Part shown: positions 7,642-63,878 of the stretch, piece after piece
How the letters are laid out: every line of letters starts with the position of its first letter
How positions within the stretch are numbered: the first letter of the stretch is position 1
Translations under genes and position numbers: made by a program
The notes under the pieces: model-generated
Databases searched by the model: none
What the model saw: the letters and a program-made list of their open reading frames with translations, nothing else
Told to the model about the DNA's origin: nothing
DNA from: Octopus sinensis
Lineage: Eukaryota
NCBI RefSeq assembly: GCF_006345805.1
Contig: NC_042997.1
Coordinates: 147,250,001 to 147,314,000 of the forward strand
DNA length: 64,000 nt
Reading direction: 5' to 3'

Positions 7642-10342
7642 TTGGGTCAAACCATAAATAATGTGGTTTTTTTAATACTCCTTTTTATACTTCAAAATTA
7701 AGATAATGTTTTTTTTAAAATCTAAAATATACTCTCCTTCATTTTCTACAACGCTCTTCCATCTATCTGGTAGACTTGCAAGGCTGCTCTTCCAAAATTC
7801 ACTTGTCCGTGACGAAAAATACTCCCCCAGTATTGTTCTAACCTCGTCTACAGAGTTCATAATTTTTCTATCCAAATGATTTTGAAGACTACGGAAAAAA
7901 TGATAATCTGATAGGGCAATATCCGGCGAACATTGTAGGTGGGCATTGTTTCCCATTGAAACTACTCCAGCCTTTGGAATGTCATCCTCGCTGTGTGTGG
8001 CCGAGCATTATGTTGAAGGAAAAATACACTTCATTTTGAAACCAAAAAAGGTCGTTTCTCTTCGAGTACTGACTTGAGCCGCTCAAGCTGCTTGCAGTAG
8101 ATCTTTGTTATCGTTTGGTTTGGGTTTAAAAGTTCAAAGTGAACTAAACCTTTCACATCCCACCAAAAAGGTAACAACACCTTATGTTGGTGAAAACTTT
8201 CTTTAGCCTGGAGTGCCAGTGTTTCTCCTTTCCCCATCCACTGTCTTCGGCGCTTGACATTTTTATGGAAAACCCATTTCTCGTCACCAGTCACTATTCA
8301 GTCCAAAATGATTCATTCGTGAGACATGACAGCAAAGAAGAGCACACATTCACTATCTACACGCGATTAGACTGGGAAAGTTTGTGAGGAACCCATTGAC
8401 CCAATTTGCTGACTTTTCCGATGGCATGCAAGTGTCGATGAATGGTTGAATGAACAAATCCAAGCTTCTCTGCTAGTCCCTCGACAGTTACGATGGGTTT
8501 TATTCCACCAGATTTTACAGGACGTCCTCGTCGAGCTCTACAGATCTTCCAGGGTGAGGTTCGTCTTCTAGGCTGTAGTTTTGGCTCGGGATTTCTGGAA
8601 CCACCGTTGACACTGGCTTAATTCGGATTCCATGAGCCCCGCCTCGCCTCGCTACTGATACCTGAGATACGCCTTGTGTCGCAATCATGAAGTTACATTC
8701 ACACGCAACATCCTTGCTACATTCTTCCATCGATTTTCGAACATTTTCACAGTCAGGCATTTTCTCTCTAGCCCTGTTTTCCTTTTAAGGTGAAAGGTGA
8801 AGTAATTCACCAATTCAGGGCCAGGGATGAAGGTGCCTGACTTTAACCCTTTCAGCCTCGACTTCCAAATCACCTCTCTCGCAATTGCTACTACAATGAC
8901 GAAACAATTCTTACCTTTTTCCGAAAAGAAATCAGTTGGGTCAATTTTTACTACAGACTCAGTCGATAGCTGTACTCTTCCTGCACTTGACAGCAGTTGT
9001 TTAGCATAAACCCACATGCCTGACACATCCGAATACTGAACAATAGCGCGCGGGACGGTTTCCCTATCCCGCTCACATCTTGGACAGGTCGAAGGGCATT
9101 GGCCACCATGCCTTGTGAGCTTGTCCCGAACAGGCAAGGCTCCTTGGTAACACTGCCATGCCAGAGACTTCTGAAAGTTGGCCAGGGACTTCGGCTCGAA
9201 TGAACGTTGGAACAGACTGTCCAGCTGATTATCGTCGAGAACTTAGGGTTTCCCCTAAGGTATCATCACGTTCCGCCTCTACAAGCCCTCTATAAAAGAA
9301 TTCGGTAGAACCTCCATCGCAGGCATTGCCCAAGCGACGGAATAGCTGCAGAGCCTTGCGACACTCCGTAAACCATGTACCCAACTTCGATCTTCGATAG
9401 AACCAGGTTTCCCGTCCATCGAAACTAGTGAACTTGGGAAACATCCGTTTCGCTAGCGGAGACCACACTCATTCACCATCCACGTTGTAAGTTTTGTAGA
9501 TCATTCTTTTCTTATTAACTTGTTCTATTGTTTCTGTTGGAGGGGCTACTTGTATTTCCGTACCCTCCTTTTTTTAACATAGACATAAACATTTTAAAAT
9601 TATTTTTCTCTTTGTTAATTTGTCTCTCCTTTTCTGTTGCCTCGGCAACGTTTAATCTTTTGTGACACCGCCGGTGTTTTTTCTTCTTCACCTGTTACAA
9701 AAACAGACATATCAATAATTAAATTACTTGGCGAGTTCATTGAACTCAATGGTGACTCCATGATGTTTTTTTTTTTAAACAAAACGCAATTTACGGCAAA
9801 ACGCCGAACACAGAAAAATTTGCGCTACGCCCCACAGAATTGGCTCAAAGCAGCACAGTTCAACAATAATTCCCCCACGGGGTGGGGAGGATTGGAAACA
9901 AGCCGCTTCAACGAAGCAATAAATAGTTCTTCAAGAAAAACAATCACAAAACAACCTCAACTCACCGCAACAACACAACAAATTCAGCAAATGACAAAGG
10001 AAGCACCGGCAAGATGTTGACACGACAAGAAACTTGCTCAAAGAAAAATTTGATTTTTTATTGCCAACAAGGGGCCAACATAGATAGGACAACGCAAAGA
10101 CATGTGGGCACAAAAACATGTGGGAACACAAAACATGTGGGGACAAAGACATGTAGGGACACAAAACTTAAAATAAAATTACAAATAAGATTATAAAAAT
10201 GAAATGAAATGAAAAAAATGGAAATGAGCTGCCTGCACCACACAATTACTACAATGTGATGCAGGTAGTTTACCCCGTCCCCTTCCGACGTTTAATTCAT
10301 ATAATTGAAAAAAAAAACCGCATTATTTATGGGATGACCCAG
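7642..10342 (-). mobile_element. Mariner (DD34D) transposon, inactive, interrupted by a LINE insertion
   Basis: TIRs ttgggtcaaaccataaataatgtggtttttt and aaaaaccgcattatttatgggatgacccag, each flanked by TA; transposase fragments QRWFQK...SLEDEPHPGR, MTGDEKW, WWDVKG, SPDIALSDYHFFRSL (ORFs 7672-7956 and 8031-8294). Confidence 0.9.
8620..10295 (-). mobile_element. Tx1/L1-clade non-LTR element nested in the mariner, apparently internally deleted
   Basis: ORF 8685-9137 has a zf-RVT-like PVRDKL...CPRCERDRETV and IWKSR C-terminus, preceded by ORF 9229-9468; 9490-10295 is tentatively 5' UTR/ORF1 start and includes a ~17-bp acatgtggg tandem at 10098-10165. Confidence 0.7.
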
Positions 10343-20960: not shown

Positions 20961-21583
20961 GGAGTAGTAGATTGTACTTACATTTAATTAAATCACTGTA
21001 GAGAAAATTGCTGTGTAGTTTTAGACAGATCGAAATCGGAGATCAACTGTTCAATATCCACTACTACGGGGTATTTGTTCTGTAGTAGAAATAGTCTTCA
21101 CTGTTGCTTTTTGTTGATGCTGTTTTGAAGATTCCAGGCAATAATGAGATCTGCATTAACAGCTCAAGTTGGTGGCCAACATAAAATCGGACGAATATAG
21201 GTAGAGAGGGAATTATAGGACGCAAACGTTCTGGGTAGGAATAATTGTGAGAGCAGTTAGCGCGAAACCTCGAGGTAGGGATGGACACAATAAAGCGTTC
21301 AAAGGAGTGACGACGAATGAGTAGCGAGAGTCTGAATAACTGTGGGTTCTGATTTGTTACGATTAACCCCAGTCATTGCAGTAGGATTTGAAAGGCAGAT
21401 TGATGAAATGCTCGCCAGTGGTAGGCTAACAACTTTAAACCAACCTGTTGGGTGAACTGCTTTTGGATGTAGTCTAGGAAGTCTCTATGAAGGATAGCAG
21501 CACAATTCCACGTACTAAATTAAATTCTTTTAAATATAATTATTAGCGAGAGAAGCAATATTAATAATAAAAGGCAATATTAA

Positions 21584-22224
21584 AAGCGGATGTTGTGTCA
21601 GAACTCACAATACTGTAATAGCTACCGCGAGAGAAACTCTCATATGGGTTTTTGGTGCATATAAGCACTCTTGTTTACATCGCCAGCAGGCGGATAATTG
21701 CTGGCCATTGCCACCACCGCAACTGCCAGATCACGTGATTTCGGACTTCCCTATCCTCGTCAGTGGCAGACACTCGGACGCTGGAGATAGCAGCGATATG
21801 TCTGCTAGTGATATACATAGAATCTCAGTGCCTAAACAGGCACCGAAAGCCGATATTAGAGTTTCTCTCGTGGTAACTATCGCAGTATCTTGTGTACTAA
21901 TACAACATGCATTTTTAAGTATTAATACTGCTTCTATCGTTCATAATTAGTTTTAATAAGCCCACTAGCTGTTCGCGACACCAGTGCCTGTTCTGGCACT
22001 GTAATTCTAGATATCGCTTTCTCCAGCGTCCGAGCATCTACCATTTACCAGGCTTCGAAAGGCCGAAATTACGTGATCTCGTAGTCTCGGCGTTGGGAAT
22101 GGCGGCTGACTTATCTCCCCGCTAGCGATGTATACAAGAGCGCTTATATACAGCCAAAGCCTATATGAGAGCTTCTCTCATAGTACCTGCCGCAGTATCC
22201 GGTGTTTTAACACAACATCCACTT
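21584..22224. mobile_element. Fold-back non-autonomous DNA transposon (TTAA-flanked, Kolobok-like)
   Basis: ttaa|aagcggatgttgtg ... cacaacatccactt|ttaa; arms 21584-21845 and 21985-22224 are diverged inverted copies; an extra internal copy of the terminus lies at 21857-21934. Confidence 0.6.
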
Positions 22225-23410
22225 TTAAGTGGGGATAAATATTATATTTTAAATATTATTTTAATTTAGCACATAACGCTAACGAGCATGTGACTGCTCC
22301 TTTGTCATCTCGTTATTAGAATCCTATAAATATTCTGCATATAGGAAGGTCGTAGATTTATACAAATAGAAAGCTACTATAACGGATCTCCAGTAGATAT
22401 AGCAAATACTCTACTCTTTCCTCTAGATTTAGCAACTAAACAGTGAGATGATTAGGCAGATGAATAAAAGTATAGACACTTTACAAAGGGACACCTATCT
22501 ACTCAATGGTATGTGACTTGTCAAAGCATTAATTTAACGTACTGAAGTTTCTCTTGGAAGCAGCAGAAATATAAAGAACATCAGACTAATCGAAAGCACT
22601 TAAACATAGATATACTTTGCTTTCTGTTCCTTTAGGTTTCCATAAATCTTCATTCTCACAATATCATGGTCTCAATATGTCTAGGTCTAGAGCATGACAG
22701 ATGAAAATATTCATTATTTCAAAAGAAGACGGGAATTGTGTCTACATAAACAAATAGGTTATTGCTTATTGAGAAGTACAAAATTTTAATGCAGATATTT
22801 AATATATTGTACAGAAAATATGAATTGATTTTGACTTGCCGAAATCAGTTTTCTGTTTAAAATTTTCATTTTACCCACTGGGTCTGAAAAATGAGATTTT
22901 TCAACGGTTGCATGGTTTAATGGTTTCCAATCCAAATTTGCGCATTTTTACGCGCTTTTTTAATATATCGTTATTTTAACTACGAATAAAATCTCTTACA
23001 CTGCCATTACTTTATATTAAACGATGAACTTCTCGGCAAATATTTTTCAAATATTTTTCTATTATAACATATATCTACAGATATTGTTTTTGCATCCATG
23101 CACAGAATTGCTCAATATAGAAATAATATTCAGAACACGACTGTTAAACTGCGGTTTTCTGTTACTACTAAGTCATGTTGCTTCACAGTCAAAAACGGAA
23201 ACCTCATGTAATAATGCATGGTAAAAATTAATCTCAGAAAAAATAAAATGAATAACAACCGCTACTTCATGTAGTGAATAACTTTCCTTTTAATTTTATA
23301 AATTTACACCCACCCACATATACATATATATTAATGTGTGTGTATATATATAAAACCTGGAAATGAATGTGTGGCCTTCGATCATATAATAGTATGAATA
23401 ATATAGAAAT

Positions 23411-25580: not shown

Positions 25581-25673
<93 letters not shown>

Positions 25674-25683
25674 GTAAATATAA

Positions 25684-26079
25684 TATGTGAGAATTATTCG
25701 GTAGCCATGATAAAACTCCGGGTTTCGGATGTCGGGGCGGAAATCCATCCGCCATCTTTTCAGTTATCGGGCTATCGAAAGAAAAAAATGCTATGAAAAT
25801 GACCGTTAAACAAAGAGAAATTACTCTATGATTGACCGTTATTAAGACAATGATTACTATGAACATTTTTACTCACTTACCTTTACTCCTTCCCCTTATT
25901 TAGCGGTCATTCTAATAGCAGTTTTGTCTTAATAACACAGTAATTTCCCTTTGTTTAATGGTCATTTTTATAGCATTTTTTTGCGATGGTCCGATAACTG
26001 AAGAAATGCTGGCGTAGGTCTCCACCCCGACATCTGAAACTCGGAGTTTTATCATGGCTACCGAATAATTGTCACATAT
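25684..26079. repeat. Long inverted repeat, arms about 170 bp, each carrying a type I hammerhead-like motif (Penelope-like inverted termini)
   Basis: aattattcggtagccatgataaaactccgggtttcggatgtcgggg versus ccccgacatctgaaactcggagttttatcatggctaccgaataatt. Confidence 0.85.
25993..26053 (+). ncRNA. Type I hammerhead-like motif (mirror copy on minus strand at 25709-25768)
   Basis: gataa CTGAAGA aatg...catct GAAAC tcgga GTT ttatc: stem I gataa/ttatc, core boxes and GUH triplet; the minus copy has CTGAAAA, CGAAAC and a CCGG loop. Confidence 0.6.
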
Positions 26080-26155
26080 ATTTACTGATAAATTCCTCTA
26101 TTTACATAATATCGAGGTCTTTTTCATTCTTTTGTTGTCTTGCCATTTGTATCAG

Positions 26156-26235
<80 letters not shown>

Positions 26236-26314
26236 CGCGGTGGATTTTGAAAAATTATAACATGTAAACAAGAGGCATGTTCTGTATCGCCTCGTATTAT
26301 ATGTTAACCATGGC

Positions 26315-26393
26315 TTCCTGCTGATGAGAGCTTCGCCAATTGGAAATTATTTTATTTACAAAGGATTGCTTGAAACTATGTATAGTCCAGGAA
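26315..26393 (+). ncRNA. Type I hammerhead ribozyme, near-canonical
   Basis: ttcctg CTGATGA gagc...gctt GAAA ctat gt atag TC caggaa: 6-bp stem I, intact CUGAUGA and GAAA, stem II with G-U closing pair, 5-bp stem III, GUC triplet at 26385-26387. Confidence 0.8.
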
Positions 26394-26530
26394 AAATAGG
26401 GTAAATGTTTACATTTTTCATTACCTTTCGAAATTACCACTATTTAGTGGTTTGTAGTTTAACTACTCTTTCTAGCGAGTCAGATGACTTGTTATATCTT
26501 ATGTGTTTAAATGTAAAGTGTATCTTTATA

Positions 26531-26588
<58 letters not shown>

Positions 26589-26789
26589 ATATTATATATA
26601 TATATATGTATGTATGTATGTATATATGTATGCGTATATGTATATATATATATATCTATATATATAAGCCTGCAGCCGATAAGGTGTTATTATAGGCTTG
26701 CTGGATCAGGGTTGACGTCAACAACATTAACAACAGTAATTATCATTATCACCAATCTTATGCACACCATTATCCTCCTCCTCCACCTC

Positions 26790-50102: not shown

Positions 50103-51348
50103 CAAGGGTGGTATCAAAATGTTCCCGGACTAGTTCTATAGCGCGCCAACAGATGGTAGCACATAGTTGCATGCGAAATGAGAGCTAGCAGTGACCTTCA
50201 TGAGGCAGTGTACCGAGCGGTATTGTTGTGTTTACTTCGCAAGTTGTGAAAGTTTGTGATTTTGTGATCACGGGTACGCTGTATTCTGCGATTTTGCCTC
50301 GGACAGGAACAAAGAGCCGACGTGAAATTTTGCGTTAAACTTAGGATGTCTGCTACAGAAACATTGAGCATTTTTCGGCAAGCTTACGGCGACGAGGCAA
50401 TGGCTCTAGCACAAGTTTCAAGTGGTACGGGCGCTTCAAAAGCGGAAGAACGTCTCTGAAAGACGATGAAAGATCTGGAAGAGTTTCCACGAGCGTCACC
50501 TTCGGAAATGTGGAGAAATTTCATCAGCTTGTGCATGAGGATCGTCAGAGGACAATCAACGACATTGATAATGTTGGTTTGTCGTGTAGGTCTGTGAAGG
50601 CAATCTTAACGCCTGAATTAAACATGTGGCGTGTCTCTGCCAAGTTTGTCCTCCACCTGCTAACCATTGCGCAGAAACAACAGCGCGTAGAAATCTGTCA
50701 AAATCCCCATCCTTCATGTCGTGGACCATCAACGGTGACGAGAGTTGAATCTACTGGTTCGACCCTGAGATGAAGCAGTAGTCGTCACAATAGAAGAGCC
50801 CTTCATCTCTACGACTGAAAAAAGCAAGACAACCGCAGTTCAATCAAAAGAATGCTCTTTGTTCTTTTCTTTATATCCACAGTATTGTGCATCAAGAATT
50901 CCTCCCCCAGGGCCGGACCGTCAATCGAGAGTCCTACTACGACGTTTTGAAGCGTTTGAGTGTGGACATTCGGCGAAAGTGACAGGATCTGTGATGTGCG
51001 AATAATTAGATTCTTCACGACGACAACGCACCCTGTCACCGAGCTCCCCTCGCTCGTGCGTTTCTCGCCAAAAAGAAAATGGCATCGTTTCCGCACCTAT
51101 TCGCCAGATTTAGCACCTTCACACGTCCATCTCTTTACCAAGATGAAAATGCAGCTAAAAGGTCGCCGATTTAATACCGTTGTCAAAGTCCTCGACTCGC
51201 TTACGGAAAATGACCTCTTAGCCGAATTTCAAAAGCGACAGGTGCATTGCTGTGCAAGGTAGCTATTTTGCAGCAGATTATGTTAAAACTTAGGTAAATA
51301 AGTTATTTTTTAGTAAACATAGTCCGGGAACTTTTTGATACCACATCG
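50103..51348 (+). mobile_element. Mariner (DD34D), near full length, inactive
   Basis: TA-flanked TIRs caagggtggtatcaaaatgttcccggacta and tagtccgggaactttttgataccacatcg; fragments SLKDDERSGR, RVSAKFVLHLLT, HDDNA, YSPDLAPS..LFTKMK.QLKGRRF; many frameshifts. Confidence 0.9.
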
Positions 51349-52684: not shown

Positions 52685-54189
52685 TGTTGTGTCTGGGGAA
52701 ACTCATTTACATTTTGTGCCTTATAATTTAATACACTCACCGGTAAAATTTCCACTTATTTCTTATTTTTATTTTTCTAAAATTTTCGTTGCGTCTTGCA
52801 ACCTTTTCAATAGTCTTGTATTTTAGGAAAATAAAAATAAGAAATACGAGGGGCGTTCAATAAGTAATGCCCCTGACCCACTTCCCATAGCAGTAGAGCA
52901 ACGACACTTGGTACAGTTATTAGTCTTTTCCTACATAGGAACTACCCAGAGTTATGCATTTCTCCCATCGTTTGATACAGCTCTGGAGACCGTTTTTGTA
53001 GAAGACCCCAGCTTGGTCCTCCAACCACGACGTGACTTCAGAAATCAAGGCTGCATCATCTGGGAAACGCTTTCCTTTCAAAATCAACTTCATGGCTGGG
53101 AAGAGGTGAAAATCAGAGGATGCAAGGGGAGGAGTTCATAGCTGCACGCTTGTGCTTCTGATCTTGCGACACGCGAGTTGTGGACCGGAGCGTTGTCCTG
53201 CAGGAGGAGGATGCCTTTGCTGATCTTGCCCCGCCTCTTGATTTTGATAGCTTCTCTTAATTTCCTCAAAAGTGAAGCATAATAGGCTCCTGTAATTGTG
53301 GTACCCTTTGCCAGGAAATCTGTCATCACTACTCCGTCCTGGTCCCAGAAGACTGAGCATAACCTTGCCAGCGGAGGGCTGCACCCTTGCCTTCTTTGGA
53401 GGAGGTGAGTCACGGTGCTTTCACTGCATTGACTGAGCTTTGGTCTATGGATCATAGTGATGGACCCAGGTTTTATCCTGTGTGATCAGTCTTTTGAAAA
53501 ATTTTGACTCATCTTCTTGGCACATCTCCAAATTCATCCTCGAGCACTCAACGCGTTCTTGCTTCTGGAAAGGTGTGAGCAACATGGAAATCCATCTGGC
53601 AGACACCTTTTGCATATGCAAATGGTCATGAATGATAGTTTCCGCAGACCCGGTACTAATCTTGACCTTATGGGCTATTTGGCGAATAGTTATGCGTTGA
53701 CTTTCCAAAATGGCAGCCTCAACTTCACGGACAGACGTCTCATCAACGGCAGAAGTGGGGGACCAGATCTGGGAGCTGTTTCCACAGAGTTCCGACTATG
53801 TTTGAATTCACAATGCCAGCGTTTTACAAGGTCATATGATGGGGCATCATCACCATAAGTTACTCTCATTTCATCAAAAGTCTCCTGTGGTGTGCGTCCT
53901 TTCAAATTCAAAAACCAGATCACTGCTCGACACTCAACAGGCTCCATTTCACACTTGACTCAGTTCAAACACCTGTAAATCAGAAACCATAATTAGTTCA
54001 GAGCTGTAATTCGCCACTTAATCTATAGCGGTATACGTAAGTGTACATGCAAAATTACAGCTACGTCAAACAACTGCAAGTGGGTCAGGGGCATTACTTA
54101 TTGAACGCCCCTCGTAAGTGGACATTTTACCGGTGAGTGAGTTAAATTATAAGGCACAAAAAGAAAATGATTCTCCCCAGATACAACAA
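52685..54189. repeat. Inverted repeat (arms about 100 bp) whose right arm is split by a mariner
   Basis: Left ttttgtgccttataatttaatacactcaccggtaaaatttccacttatttcttattttt; right aaaaataagaaata[mariner]agtggacattttaccggtgagtgagttaaattataaggcacaaaa. Confidence 0.85.
52847..54114 (-). mobile_element. Mariner (DD34D), full-length outline, perfect 37-bp TIRs, transposase broken
   Basis: cgaggggcgttcaataagtaatgcccctgacccactt at both ends with TA TSD; ORF pieces MEPVECRAVI..., KVSARWI..LLT, ITQDKTWVHHYDP, LLQDNAPVH; the YSPD motif is deleted. Confidence 0.95.
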
Positions 54190-58413: not shown

Positions 58414-59975
58414 TACAAGTACCTAGGGGTAATTGAAGGGAACGGAATAAGGCATTCAGGGATGAAGGAAAGGATCAGGAGCGAATGCTATCGAAGAGTG
58501 AGAGCAATACTCAAGACAGAGCTGAATGCAAGAAACAGGATCGAAGCGATCAATGAATTAGCCATACCAGTCGTGACTTACAGTTTCAATATTGTTAACT
58601 GGTCAATTACTGAAATATGTCAGCTCGACAGAAAAATAAGGAAACTGTTGACAATGCATCAAATGCACCACCCTAAGGCAGATACAGAACGACTCTATCT
58701 GCCAAGAAAAGAGGGAGGCCGTGGTCGTTTGCAACTGGCAATAACAATGAAGATTGCTACAATTGGCCTAGACACCTACCTGAAAAACTCTGAGGACTGG
58801 ATGTTAAAACTTGTCTCAAAACATGAAAACAAGAAAGCATCATACTCAGTCACAAAACAGGCAAAGGAATATCTAAGTGAATTCCGAATACAACCAATTT
58901 CGGAATTAGAGATAGATATACAAGAAACAAGCACAGAAAAAGCTAGGCGCATGAAAACCCGTGCCAAAACTGCGGCCTTAGATATTCTGAATAATAAATG
59001 GCAAGAAAAACCTCTCTATGGCAAATACCCAAAGAGAGCGAATAATGCAGATATCGACAAAGCCCTGACCCATCAATGGCTAATGGCCTCTGGCTTAAAA
59101 TCTGAAACAGAGGGGTTTATCATAGCAGCTCAAGATCAATGCCTACCAACAAGAAACTACCAGGCCAACATATTAAAGAACGGCAGTAGCCCAACATGTC
59201 GTGTATGCCGACAACAAAATGAAACCATTGATCATGTTGTCTCCAAATGCAGTCTTCTAGCGCCTACAGAGTACCTCAGTAGGCATGATAGAGCTGCACA
59301 ATATATTCACTGGGTAATTTGCAAAAACCTGGATTTGCCCCATGAAAAAAACTGGTGGGAACACAATCCACCTCCAGTGCTTGAAAATGACCACATCTCA
59401 CTCCTCTGGAACTTCACCATTCAAACTGACAGGAAGATAGATGCAAATAGGCCAGACATCATATTGAAAGACTTCAGACAAAGAACATGCCTCCTCATTG
59501 ATATGACTGTCCCAATCGATATAAACGTATCTATCAAGACCTACCAAAAACTGAGCAAATATAAAGATCTTGAAATAGAAATCAGCAAAATGTGGAAGCT
59601 GAAGACTAAAACAATACCTGTTATCATAGGTGCCCTGGGAATGATAGCAAAAGGGACTGATTGCTACCTAAGTCAGATACCAGGAAACCCCAAAATGGCA
59701 GAAATTCAAAAGATAGTGCTCATGGGAACTGCTCATATTCTACGCAAAATACTCTCTATGTAATCCCAAGGTTTAAAACAAACTTTTTTTATTTTTATTT
59801 TTTATTTTTTTTATATTTTAAAAAATTTTTATGTATTAGACATTCACTAGTACAACACCAAAAAAAAAAAAAAAAACCAAATATATGGCACAGAACTTCC
59901 AACCTGTTGTCTCTTGAGGTCTCTGGGTGAGACTTGGAGCCAACTTGTACAGACATAAAGCAAAAGTCAAACATA

Positions 59976-63302: not shown

Positions 63303-63878
63303 CCATTTCTTTACTACCCACAAGCGGCTAAACAGAGAGAGGACAAACAAGGACAGACAAACGGATTAAGTCTATTATATCGACCTCAGTGCGTAACTGG
63401 TACTTATTTAATCGATCCCGAATGATGGAAGGCAAAGTCAACCTCGGCGGAATTTGAACTCAGAACGTAGCGGCAAACGAAATACCTATTTCTTTACTAC
63501 CCACGAGGGGCTAAAAACAGACGGGACAAACAAGGGCAGACAAACGGATTAAGTCGATTACATCGACCCCAGTGCGTAACTGATGCTTATTTAATCGATC
63601 CCGAAAGGATGAAAGGTAAAGTCGACCTCGGCGGAATTTGAACTCAGAACGTAACGACAGACGAAATACCTATTTCTTTACTACCCACAAGGGGCTAAAC
63701 ACAGAGAGGACAAACAAAGACAGACAAACGGATTAAGTCGATTACATCGACCCCAGTGCGCAACTGGTACTTATTTAATCGACCCCGAAAGGATGACAGG
63801 CAAAGTCGACCTCGGTGGAATTTGAACTCAGAACATAACGGCAGACGAAATACCGCTCAGCATTTCGCCCAGCGTGCT
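63303..63878 (-). mobile_element. SINE family A with three tandem ~184-bp modules
   Basis: Units 63303-63485, 63486-63669 and 63670-63853, joined at gaaatac|ctatttc; partial tRNA-like head at 63854-63878. Confidence 0.92.

What the first reader, a model, noticed from the sequence alone, without database searches (positions are those of the whole stretch)
26315..26393. Near-perfect type I hammerhead ribozyme
Seen: all core nucleotides are present (CUGAUGA, GAAA, GUC). Stem I is ttcctg/caggaa, stem III is near-palindromic (actatgtatagt), and stem II gagc/gctt encloses a ~36-nt loop. The only deviation is G-U instead of G-C at the base of stem II, consistent with CpG decay. It sits in a ~300-bp island between two (TA)n runs. 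Inference: a possibly still active self-cleaving RNA from a small Penelope- or retrozyme-like insertion; if transcribed on the plus strand it would cut after 26387.
Basis: partly seen in the sequence, partly recalled or inferred. Interest (0 to 1): 0.75.

Follow-up and report, generated by a model that had tools for sequence, protein, structure and literature searches.

The report
Worn hammerhead in Penelope-parasite repeat
This is a real self-cutting-RNA (hammerhead) motif inside one shortened, worn copy of a non-coding repeat found in hundreds of places in this animal genome, likely pasted into TA microsatellites by a borrowed Penelope retrotransposon enzyme; it is a new member of a known kind, and this copy is probably no longer an efficient cutter.

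Summary
The motif is there as described (0 hits in 100 shuffles). It lies in a 5'-truncated, ~6% diverged copy (26234-~26533) of a ~478-nt non-coding unit: 539 genome matches to one 28-mer. Copies show Penelope footprints: two preferred 3' ends (91 of 100), (TA)n targets, inverted arms (100 of 194 places), longer-than-unit inserts (51 of 194).

Corrections: (1) G-U at the base of stem II is not CpG decay; it marks a 46-copy clade (98/97) and only 3 of 46 carry G-C. (2) The family's stem III is a perfect palindrome, suggesting dimer cleavage; this copy broke it. (3) The '36-nt loop' is structured and likely forms a 5-bp pseudoknot with the leader; this copy lost one pair.

This copy is a lone monomer with four private changes in the ribozyme; no RNA evidence either way. 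Most interesting: 5' truncations are ~3-fold denser in the 36 nt just 3' of the cut site and drop beyond it, a possible fossil of in vivo cleavage (no sharp spike; rivals remain). The scan found similar retrozyme families before on other DNA, not this sequence.

The parts
26234..26533 (+). 5'-truncated copy (~0.63 unit; unit positions u324-u478 then u1-~u151, u1 = first base after the cut) of a ~478-nt non-coding hammerhead repeat; the 3' end merges into TA up to ~26544
   Evidence: only family match in the window
26258..26306 (+). long hairpin upstream of the ribozyme, present across the family; role unknown
   Evidence: fold; alignment
26310..26314 (+). leader strand of a predicted pseudoknot with 26335-26339 (5 bp in the family, 4 bp here; 26310 is a private change)
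26315..26320 (+). stem I, 5' strand
   Evidence: inner pair GC 37 / AU 9 of 49
26321..26327 (+). core C3-A9; position 7 is free in the family (A31/T20/C19/G1/gap 3 of 74)
26328..26371 (+). helix II: 4-bp stem with clade-wide G-U at the base, internal loop carrying the pseudoknot strand 26335-26339, distal hairpin 26340-26361 (private mismatch at 26343)
26372..26375 (+). core G12-A13-A14-A15.1
26375..26386 (+). stem III: perfect 12-nt palindrome in most relatives, broken at its centre here by a private C>U at 26381
26387..26388 (+). predicted cleavage site (GUC, cut after 26387)
   Evidence: by homology to hammerheads, untested
26388..26393 (+). stem I, 3' strand
26156..26233 (.). (TA)n, 5' flank / likely target microsatellite
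26534..26666 (.). (TA)n, 3' flank at the family's first preferred 3' end

Best explanation
This hammerhead motif is part of a truncated, about 6% diverged copy of a ~478-nt non-coding repeat with hundreds of genomic copies, which was likely reverse-transcribed into TA microsatellites by a Penelope-type RT/GIY-YIG enzyme supplied in trans, and this lone copy is probably a weak or silent cutter today. Mechanism: (shown) the unit codes for nothing, joins head to tail, and ends at one of two sites ~90 nt apart next to (TA)n, often with an inverted second arm; (inferred) a longer-than-unit RNA from a tandem source locus was the template, the enzyme nicked (TA)n, began at one of the two internal sites 3' of the ribozyme and copied 5'-ward until it fell off; (inferred) the ribozyme was under selection in the source lineages, cut best as a dimer through palindromic stem III, and was braced by a leader/helix II pseudoknot; (inferred, weaker) some 40% of templates were already cut, which left extra 5' ends just after the cut site. 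The window copy came from an uncut or religated template, ended at the first site, and has decayed since.
For: Family: 1198 first-look candidates, 40 scored, 81-89% identity; 539 and 213 pattern matches, controls 0. Period 475-481. Longest stop-free frame 71 codons; no PLE protein match below E 0.26. 3' ends: 59 + 32 of 100 at two sites; 82 of 112 at (TA)4+ vs 7.5% background, somewhat inflated by the unit's own TA-rich end. 100 of 194 places two-armed, 51 longer than a unit. These match PLE hallmarks (PMC8557442, PMC11167929). Open 781-aa RT+GIY-YIG frames exist in the genome. Selection: position 7, position 17 and stems vary by subfamily with compensation (13 of 25 pairs, 56 cells vs 14.7 shuffled) while core letters have no subfamily variant; stem III is a palindrome in 12-, alternative 12- and 8-nt forms. 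Pseudoknot pair 5: UA 49, CG 15, UG 8 of 79; WC 65 vs 43 shuffled; pair 6 unpaired. Truncation hazard 0.0217/nt at u1-36 vs 0.006-0.008 elsewhere (p 1e-7; one per locus 6e-6), second anchor set 2.3-fold (p 0.03); simulation shows no end-calling bias and equally AT-rich stretches show no rise.
Against: No autonomous partner found: the unit matches only 1 of 35 GIY-YIG loci and there as a separate insert ~1 kb past the frame. Only 3 of 194 places hold two or more ribozymes in one arm, none in the window's G-U clade; one has A13G in both, one is a local duplication with TA inside, so the source locus is not identified. Compensatory changes are few events inherited by subfamilies, so shuffle counts overstate them; pseudoknot pairs 1-4 show no covariation above shuffles. 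No sharp spike at u1-6 (p 0.28); among 29 arms joined to unrelated flank the excess is 2.1-fold, p 0.06; the 36-nt bin was chosen after seeing the data; the two anchor sets share some loci. Folding does not favour the active state even in less decayed copies. This copy's core is intact, so it could still cut.
Confidence: 0.82

Rival explanations
1. This particular copy is still an active, possibly co-opted ribozyme that cuts a plus-strand transcript after 26387.
For: All core letters and stems I-II intact; stem I pairs at 0.8 in the isolated 79-mer; 4 pseudoknot pairs remain; an axolotl hammerhead with U-U at the base of helix II still cuts 22% in 1 h as a monomer (PMC7229834, passage).
Against: 18 substitutions and 3 indels against close relatives, four inside the ribozyme domain; terminal branch 0.059, as in other decaying copies; no second copy in the window to dimerise with; active fold p ~4e-4 in context; only 1 of 9 frog retrozyme dimers cut in vitro (bioRxiv 10.64898/2026.07.22.740005); no host exon among 149 of 646 frames tested.
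Confidence: 0.12
2. The unit is just the terminal repeat (pLTR) of a protein-coding Penelope element, and these are its truncated ends.
For: Same end anatomy as PLEs; one sister subfamily (11 of 82) fits the published PLE ribozyme consensus with the unpaired base before G10.1 (PMC4209133 supplement).
Against: Copies that run far enough 5' go into the tail of the previous unit, not an ORF (all 87 and 100 anchors); no PLE protein match beside family copies in the loci held, apart from low-complexity or unrelated hits. A parent element may still exist or be extinct.
Confidence: 0.08
3. The template was a self-cleaved, re-ligated circular monomer copied more than once around (rolling circle), rather than a linear multimer.
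For: 51 of 194 inserts exceed one unit although tandem arrays are rare (3 of 194); most arms that reach the cut site read through it; circular RNAs are shown for other animal retrozymes (PMC7229834).
Against: Few arms pass a second cut site (longest arms 711-870 nt apart from one local triplication); a 1.5-mer source such as L281 would give the same products; no RNA data.
Confidence: 0.35
4. The pile-up of 5' ends after the cut site comes from a transcription start or a fold-back hairpin at u4-31, not from cleavage.
For: No single-base spike; the excess is strongest in arms joined to an inverted arm (3.2-fold, 68 arms); u4-31 can form an 8-bp A/U hairpin (read from the sequence); no RNA-seq ends at the cut site were seen for the anole PLE (PMC11167929).
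Against: The hazard falls within a few bases of the cut site (0.0219 at u478-35, 0.0060 at u442-477); the stronger hairpins upstream raise no hazard; three arms start exactly at u1.
Confidence: 0.4
5. Chance match to the hammerhead pattern.
For: No Rfam hit; folding z 0.08.
Against: 0 of 100 shuffles; compensated stems across subfamilies.
Confidence: 0.01

Closest known systems
Metazoan non-LTR retrozymes (Cervera and de la Pena 2020, PMC7229834, passages; Li, Clavereau, Pollet 2026, bioRxiv 10.64898/2026.07.22.740005, parts 1-3 of 5)
   Same: Non-coding AT-rich unit of a few hundred bases with one type I hammerhead, head-to-tail junction, many solo copies, proposed non-autonomous PLE derivative.
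   Different: Unit 478 nt (above the 170-400 nt of the 2020 paper, inside the 51-972 of the preprint); almost no arrays (3 of 194 places); explicit PLE end footprints; long structured helix II; RNA and circles not shown.
Penelope-like elements and their pLTR hammerheads (PMC4209133, parts 1-2 of 4 and one supplement file; PMC8557442, passages; PMC11167929, parts 1-2 of 4)
   Same: 5' truncation, partial tandems, inverted 5' arm, two 3' ends bounding a tail, (TA)n targets, palindromic helix III; a sister subfamily has the unpaired base between 9 and 10.1.
   Different: No ORF; tail ~90 nt rather than 30-40; helix I 6 bp and helix III up to 12 nt, so not a minimal motif; the window's clade lacks the 'highly conserved' G10.1-C11.1 pair.
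Pseudoknotted hammerheads (Perreault et al. 2011, PMC3088659, passages; includes the human C10orf118 ribozyme with a 5-bp pseudoknot)
   Same: Watson-Crick contact between sequence flanking stem I and helix II, found in about 40% of hammerheads there.
   Different: Here the partner is an internal loop of a long helix II in a mobile animal repeat; predicted only. Not the pistol-like PK hammerhead of PMC11300833 (part 1 of 6), where the pseudoknot replaces helix II.
Axolotl HHR_Amex2 (PMC7229834)
   Same: A whole amplified family with a non-canonical pair at the base of helix II.
   Different: U-U there; G-U, U-U, A-A or a bulged U in this family's clades.

Membership tests
Type I hammerhead ribozyme | Core CUGANGA, GAAA, NUH | tested here: met
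Type I hammerhead ribozyme | Three helices, helix I open, supported by compensatory changes | tested here: met
   88.6% of cells paired, slid controls 31-46%
Type I hammerhead ribozyme | G10.1-C11.1 pair (usual, not invariant) | tested here: not met
   G-U here and in 39 of 46 clade members; G-C in sister clades
Type I hammerhead ribozyme | Stem I-stem II tertiary contact | tested here: inconclusive
   5-bp pseudoknot conserved, one pair covaries by subfamily; no probing
Type I hammerhead ribozyme | Self-cleavage at the NUH site | not testable with these tools
   needs bench work; indirect footprint
Rfam hammerhead families | Score at the gathering threshold | tested here: not met
   likely due to the long helix II (inference)
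Non-LTR retrozyme | Short non-coding AT-rich unit with one type I hammerhead, head-to-tail | tested here: met
Non-LTR retrozyme | Two or more consecutive units with complete ribozymes ('active' criterion) | tested here: not met
   not at this locus; 3 of 194 family places, all in sister clades. The locus is a truncated solo derivative
Non-LTR retrozyme | Unit-length linear and circular RNA | not testable with these tools
   no usable RNA run for this sequence
Penelope-like element (autonomous) | RT + GIY-YIG ORF | tested here: not met
Penelope-mobilised element | Partial tandems and inverted 5'-truncated arm | tested here: met
   51 and 100 of 194 places; the window copy itself has neither
Penelope-mobilised element | Two 3' ends bounding a tail; (TA)n targets | tested here: met
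Penelope-mobilised element | Sequence kinship to the pLTR of an autonomous PLE | tested here: inconclusive
   none in 35 GIY-YIG loci out of 5029 first-look candidates

The most novel reading that the evidence does not exclude
The family's insertion ends record ribozyme cutting in the germ line: about 40% of the RNAs copied by the Penelope enzyme had been cut at the hammerhead, by a pseudoknot-braced, dimer-acting ribozyme that swapped the 'conserved' G10.1-C11.1 pair for G-U, U-U or A-A in whole amplifying lineages. This would be genomic evidence that Penelope-linked hammerheads cut during transposition, and a natural mutational series for the base of helix II.
Probability: 0.4. Interest if true: 0.6.

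Novelty: new member of a known kind. Interest (0 to 1): 0.36.

Why it matters
The single motif is ordinary: one of at least three hammerhead-like motifs in this window and one of hundreds of relatives. The family is useful because the role of hammerheads in Penelope-type transposition is open: cutting was not needed in vitro and no RNA ends were seen at the cut site (PMC11167929). The truncation step at the cut site is a test that can be repeated on any such family from genome sequence alone. The clades also offer natural variants (G-C, bulged U, G-U, U-U, A-A at the base of helix II; 8- or 12-nt palindromes; a pseudoknot) for a simple cleavage series. A head-to-head chimera of two unrelated hammerhead families (L010) suggests that the two arms of an insertion can come from different RNAs.

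Tried and rejected
Rfam: no hammerhead hit. RNA: no RNA holder listed (my query included the TA flanks, so the small shares are probably TA words); 8 of 24 listed runs laid on 26234-26533 gave nothing; no evidence either way. Autonomous partner: not in 35 GIY-YIG loci; the RT fragment upstream of L007 is separated from the unit and was not linked to it; the relative in L196 follows a TA run ~1 kb past the frame and is missing from the other near-identical PLE copies. Coding remnant in the unit: no significant match. Host gene: only transposase and RT fragments in 149 of 646 frames. CpG decay: rejected. A spike of 5' ends at exactly u1-6: not significant. Core conservation of 1.1% is not used, because those 82 copies were picked by a core pattern; unbiased counts give ~5% decay, like the flanks. 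One search used wrong columns for the pseudoknot and is void; one search used 22 hand-picked copies, so (79 of 82; one mis-anchored row and two near-duplicates dropped) is the count to use. In one search, L051 was mislabelled as an internal deletion; it lies outside the tested bins. No dead-ribozyme control family was available. Literature: 8 searches answered listed no paper on cephalopod retrozymes or on 5' truncation at the cut site; the supplement of PMC7229834, one file of PMC4209133 and the preprint's supplements could not be read and may list this family. Lunse et al. 2017 on dimer cleavage is recalled only.

Full report
1. Observation. The motif is at the stated place. A type I descriptor recovers it with stems of 6, 4 and 6 pairs and the cut after 26387; it finds one other site in the window and none in 100 block-wise dinucleotide shuffles. 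Rfam has no hit, and the 79-mer is not unusually stable (z 0.08). The window lies in a 2.72-Gb animal genome, G000; its repeats look octopus-like to me (recalled, not tested). It holds microsatellites and transposon fragments; no host exon was found in 149 of 646 frames tested.

2. The element. The 300-bp island has many relatives: 40 scored of 1198 candidates, 81-89% identical. A 28-mer from its 3' part has 539 matches with up to 2 mismatches and a 25-mer from outside the island 213, both with 0 control matches. Sequence downstream of the island reappears upstream in longer copies, giving a period of 475-481 nt. I number the unit from the first base after the cut (u1). The window copy is u324-u478 plus u1-~u151, the only family match in the window. 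The unit has no frame over 71 codons and no PLE protein match.

3. Insertion anatomy. In 100 anchors taken without regard to what lies upstream (all 65 exact matches and the first 35 one-mismatch matches), 59 end at u143-162, 32 at u237-258 and 9 elsewhere; only 22 reach far enough to hold a whole ribozyme. 82 of 112 3' ends touch (TA)4+ against 7.5% background, a figure inflated a little by the unit's own TA-rich end. Of 194 distinct places held, 100 have an inverted arm at the 5' end and 51 exceed one unit. Partial tandems, inverted arms, a tail and TA targets are PLE hallmarks (PMC8557442, passages); two internal RT start sites bound the tail in the anole PLE (PMC11167929). The genome has open 775-883-aa frames, two confirmed as RT+GIY-YIG. 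None of 35 GIY-YIG loci carries the unit as its terminal repeat, so the partner is not identified.

4. The ribozyme across the family. Core letters are 92-97% conserved in BLAST-anchored copies with no subfamily variant, while position 7 is A31/T20/C19/G1. On 49 aligned copies 13 of 25 pairs have double changes (56 cells vs 14.7 shuffled; slid controls 4-25), including GC/AU 37/9 in stem I and UA/CG 33/7 in stem III. These are few events inherited by clades, so the shuffle count is not a probability. Stem III is a palindrome in its 12-nt, alternative 12-nt and 8-nt forms, which fits dimer cleavage (PMC4209133).

5. G-U is not CpG decay. A tree of 82 ribozyme-bearing copies puts all G-U/U-U forms, including the window's, in one 46-row clade (98/97); sister clades have G-C directly, a bulged U then G-C (the published PLE consensus), or A-A then G-C. 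Within the clade: G-U 39, U-U 4, G-C 3. G12 is intact (83 of 86), whereas 5 true CpGs keep C in 60-93% and lose G in 6-14 copies each. By alignment the G-U looks like an added pair below the old G-C pair, which later became A-U (inference; the root is a midpoint).

6. The loop is structured. It holds an 8-bp distal hairpin (93.5% paired in its inner six pairs) and an internal loop complementary to the five bases before stem I. Over 79 copies pairs 1-4 are paired in 72, 72, 69 and 66 without excess covariation; pair 5 is UA 49, CG 15, UG 8 (WC 65 vs 43 shuffled); pair 6 is unpaired. A pseudoknot between stems I and II is a known, rate-enhancing contact (PMC3088659). It is predicted here, not shown.

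7. This copy. It differs from 13 close relatives by 18 substitutions and 3 indels (terminal branch 0.059). Four lie in the ribozyme domain: 26310 (pseudoknot pair 5), 26343 (distal hairpin), 26363, 26381 (centre of the palindrome; self-duplex -15.9 to -9.0 kcal/mol). The active fold is 2.6 kcal/mol above the ensemble alone and 4.5-4.9 in context, but near-consensus copies score no better, and the model ignores pseudoknots and dimers. There is no partner copy nearby. I put meaningful cleavage in vivo today at about 12%.

8. A possible footprint of cutting. 5' ends occur at 0.0217 per nt in u1-36 against 0.0082 in u37-71 and 0.006 beyond the cut; the ratio to the rest is 3.1 (p 1e-7), 2.9 with one arm per locus (p 6e-6). 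A second anchor at u267 gives a flat 0.007 over u37-267 and 0.018 at u1-36 (ratio 2.3, p 0.03). Simulated copies show no such bias, and AT content does not explain it. Survival across u36-u1 is 33/75 and 8/17 against ~0.78 expected, which would mean ~40% cut templates (my arithmetic). Against: no spike at u1-6 (p 0.28), 2.1-fold and p 0.06 among 29 arms joined to unrelated flank, a bin chosen after the fact, shared loci, and a start site or small hairpin as rivals. Most arms that reach the cut read through it, so uncut or circular RNA was also copied, in line with PMC11167929.

9. Source loci. Three of 194 places hold two or more ribozymes in one arm: L281 (G-C clade, 1.5 units), L072/L246 (A-A clade, A13G in both) and L232 (three units with TA inside each, a local duplication). 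None is in the window's clade. By the 'active retrozyme' criterion of the 2026 preprint this locus is a solo derivative.

10. Verdict. A real type I hammerhead in a decayed copy of a non-autonomous, PLE-mobilised retrozyme-like family: a new member of a known kind. Earlier notes of this scan describe similar families in this and other genomes; a look-up by this sequence found none. My reading was formed before those calls. Interest 0.36; 0.6 if the truncation step proves to be a record of cleavage.

Noticed in passing
window 25646-26142: A second, unrelated two-armed element between TA runs right beside the finding, with a hammerhead-like motif at 25993-26053 (+; core intact, weak base of helix II, palindromic helix III, GUU site) and a decayed inverted one; matched by 8 held loci.
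   Followed up: partly
window 21723-21769 (-), within 21530-22270: A compact, fully canonical type I hammerhead (stems 6/4/5, G10.1-C11.1, palindromic helix III) in another two-armed element; a degenerate one lies on the other arm near 22030-22085. It fits the generic consensus better than the flagged motif.
   Followed up: partly
L010 (G000:C1:50637587-50640881), 1247-1797: Head-to-head chimera: one arm from the neighbouring family, the other from this family, joined directly at their 5' ends; suggests shared enzyme and separate RNA templates for the two arms.
   Followed up: partly
L281 1142-1876; L232 2912-4485; L246 3206-4121: The only multi-ribozyme arms found; L281 is the best natural construct for a cleavage test.
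   Followed up: partly
L186, L189, L190, L191: Near-identical open 781-aa RT+GIY-YIG frames; in L186 and L191 preceded by an overlapping 479-aa frame: a young, two-frame PLE family.
   Followed up: no
L182, L183, L188: Hammerhead-like motif with the U3-A8 core variant about 570 nt past the GIY-YIG frame.
   Followed up: no
L014, L019, L034, L184, L190: Other hammerhead-like motifs with long helix II inserts; long helix II seems common in this genome.
   Followed up: no
window 58414-59763 (+): 449-aa open frame with a zf-RVT hit, a LINE fragment; mariner transposase fragments near 8034-8297, 50794-50979 and 53093-53959.
   Followed up: no
window 63305-63854: Three tandem copies of a 184-bp unit, 90% alike.
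   Followed up: no
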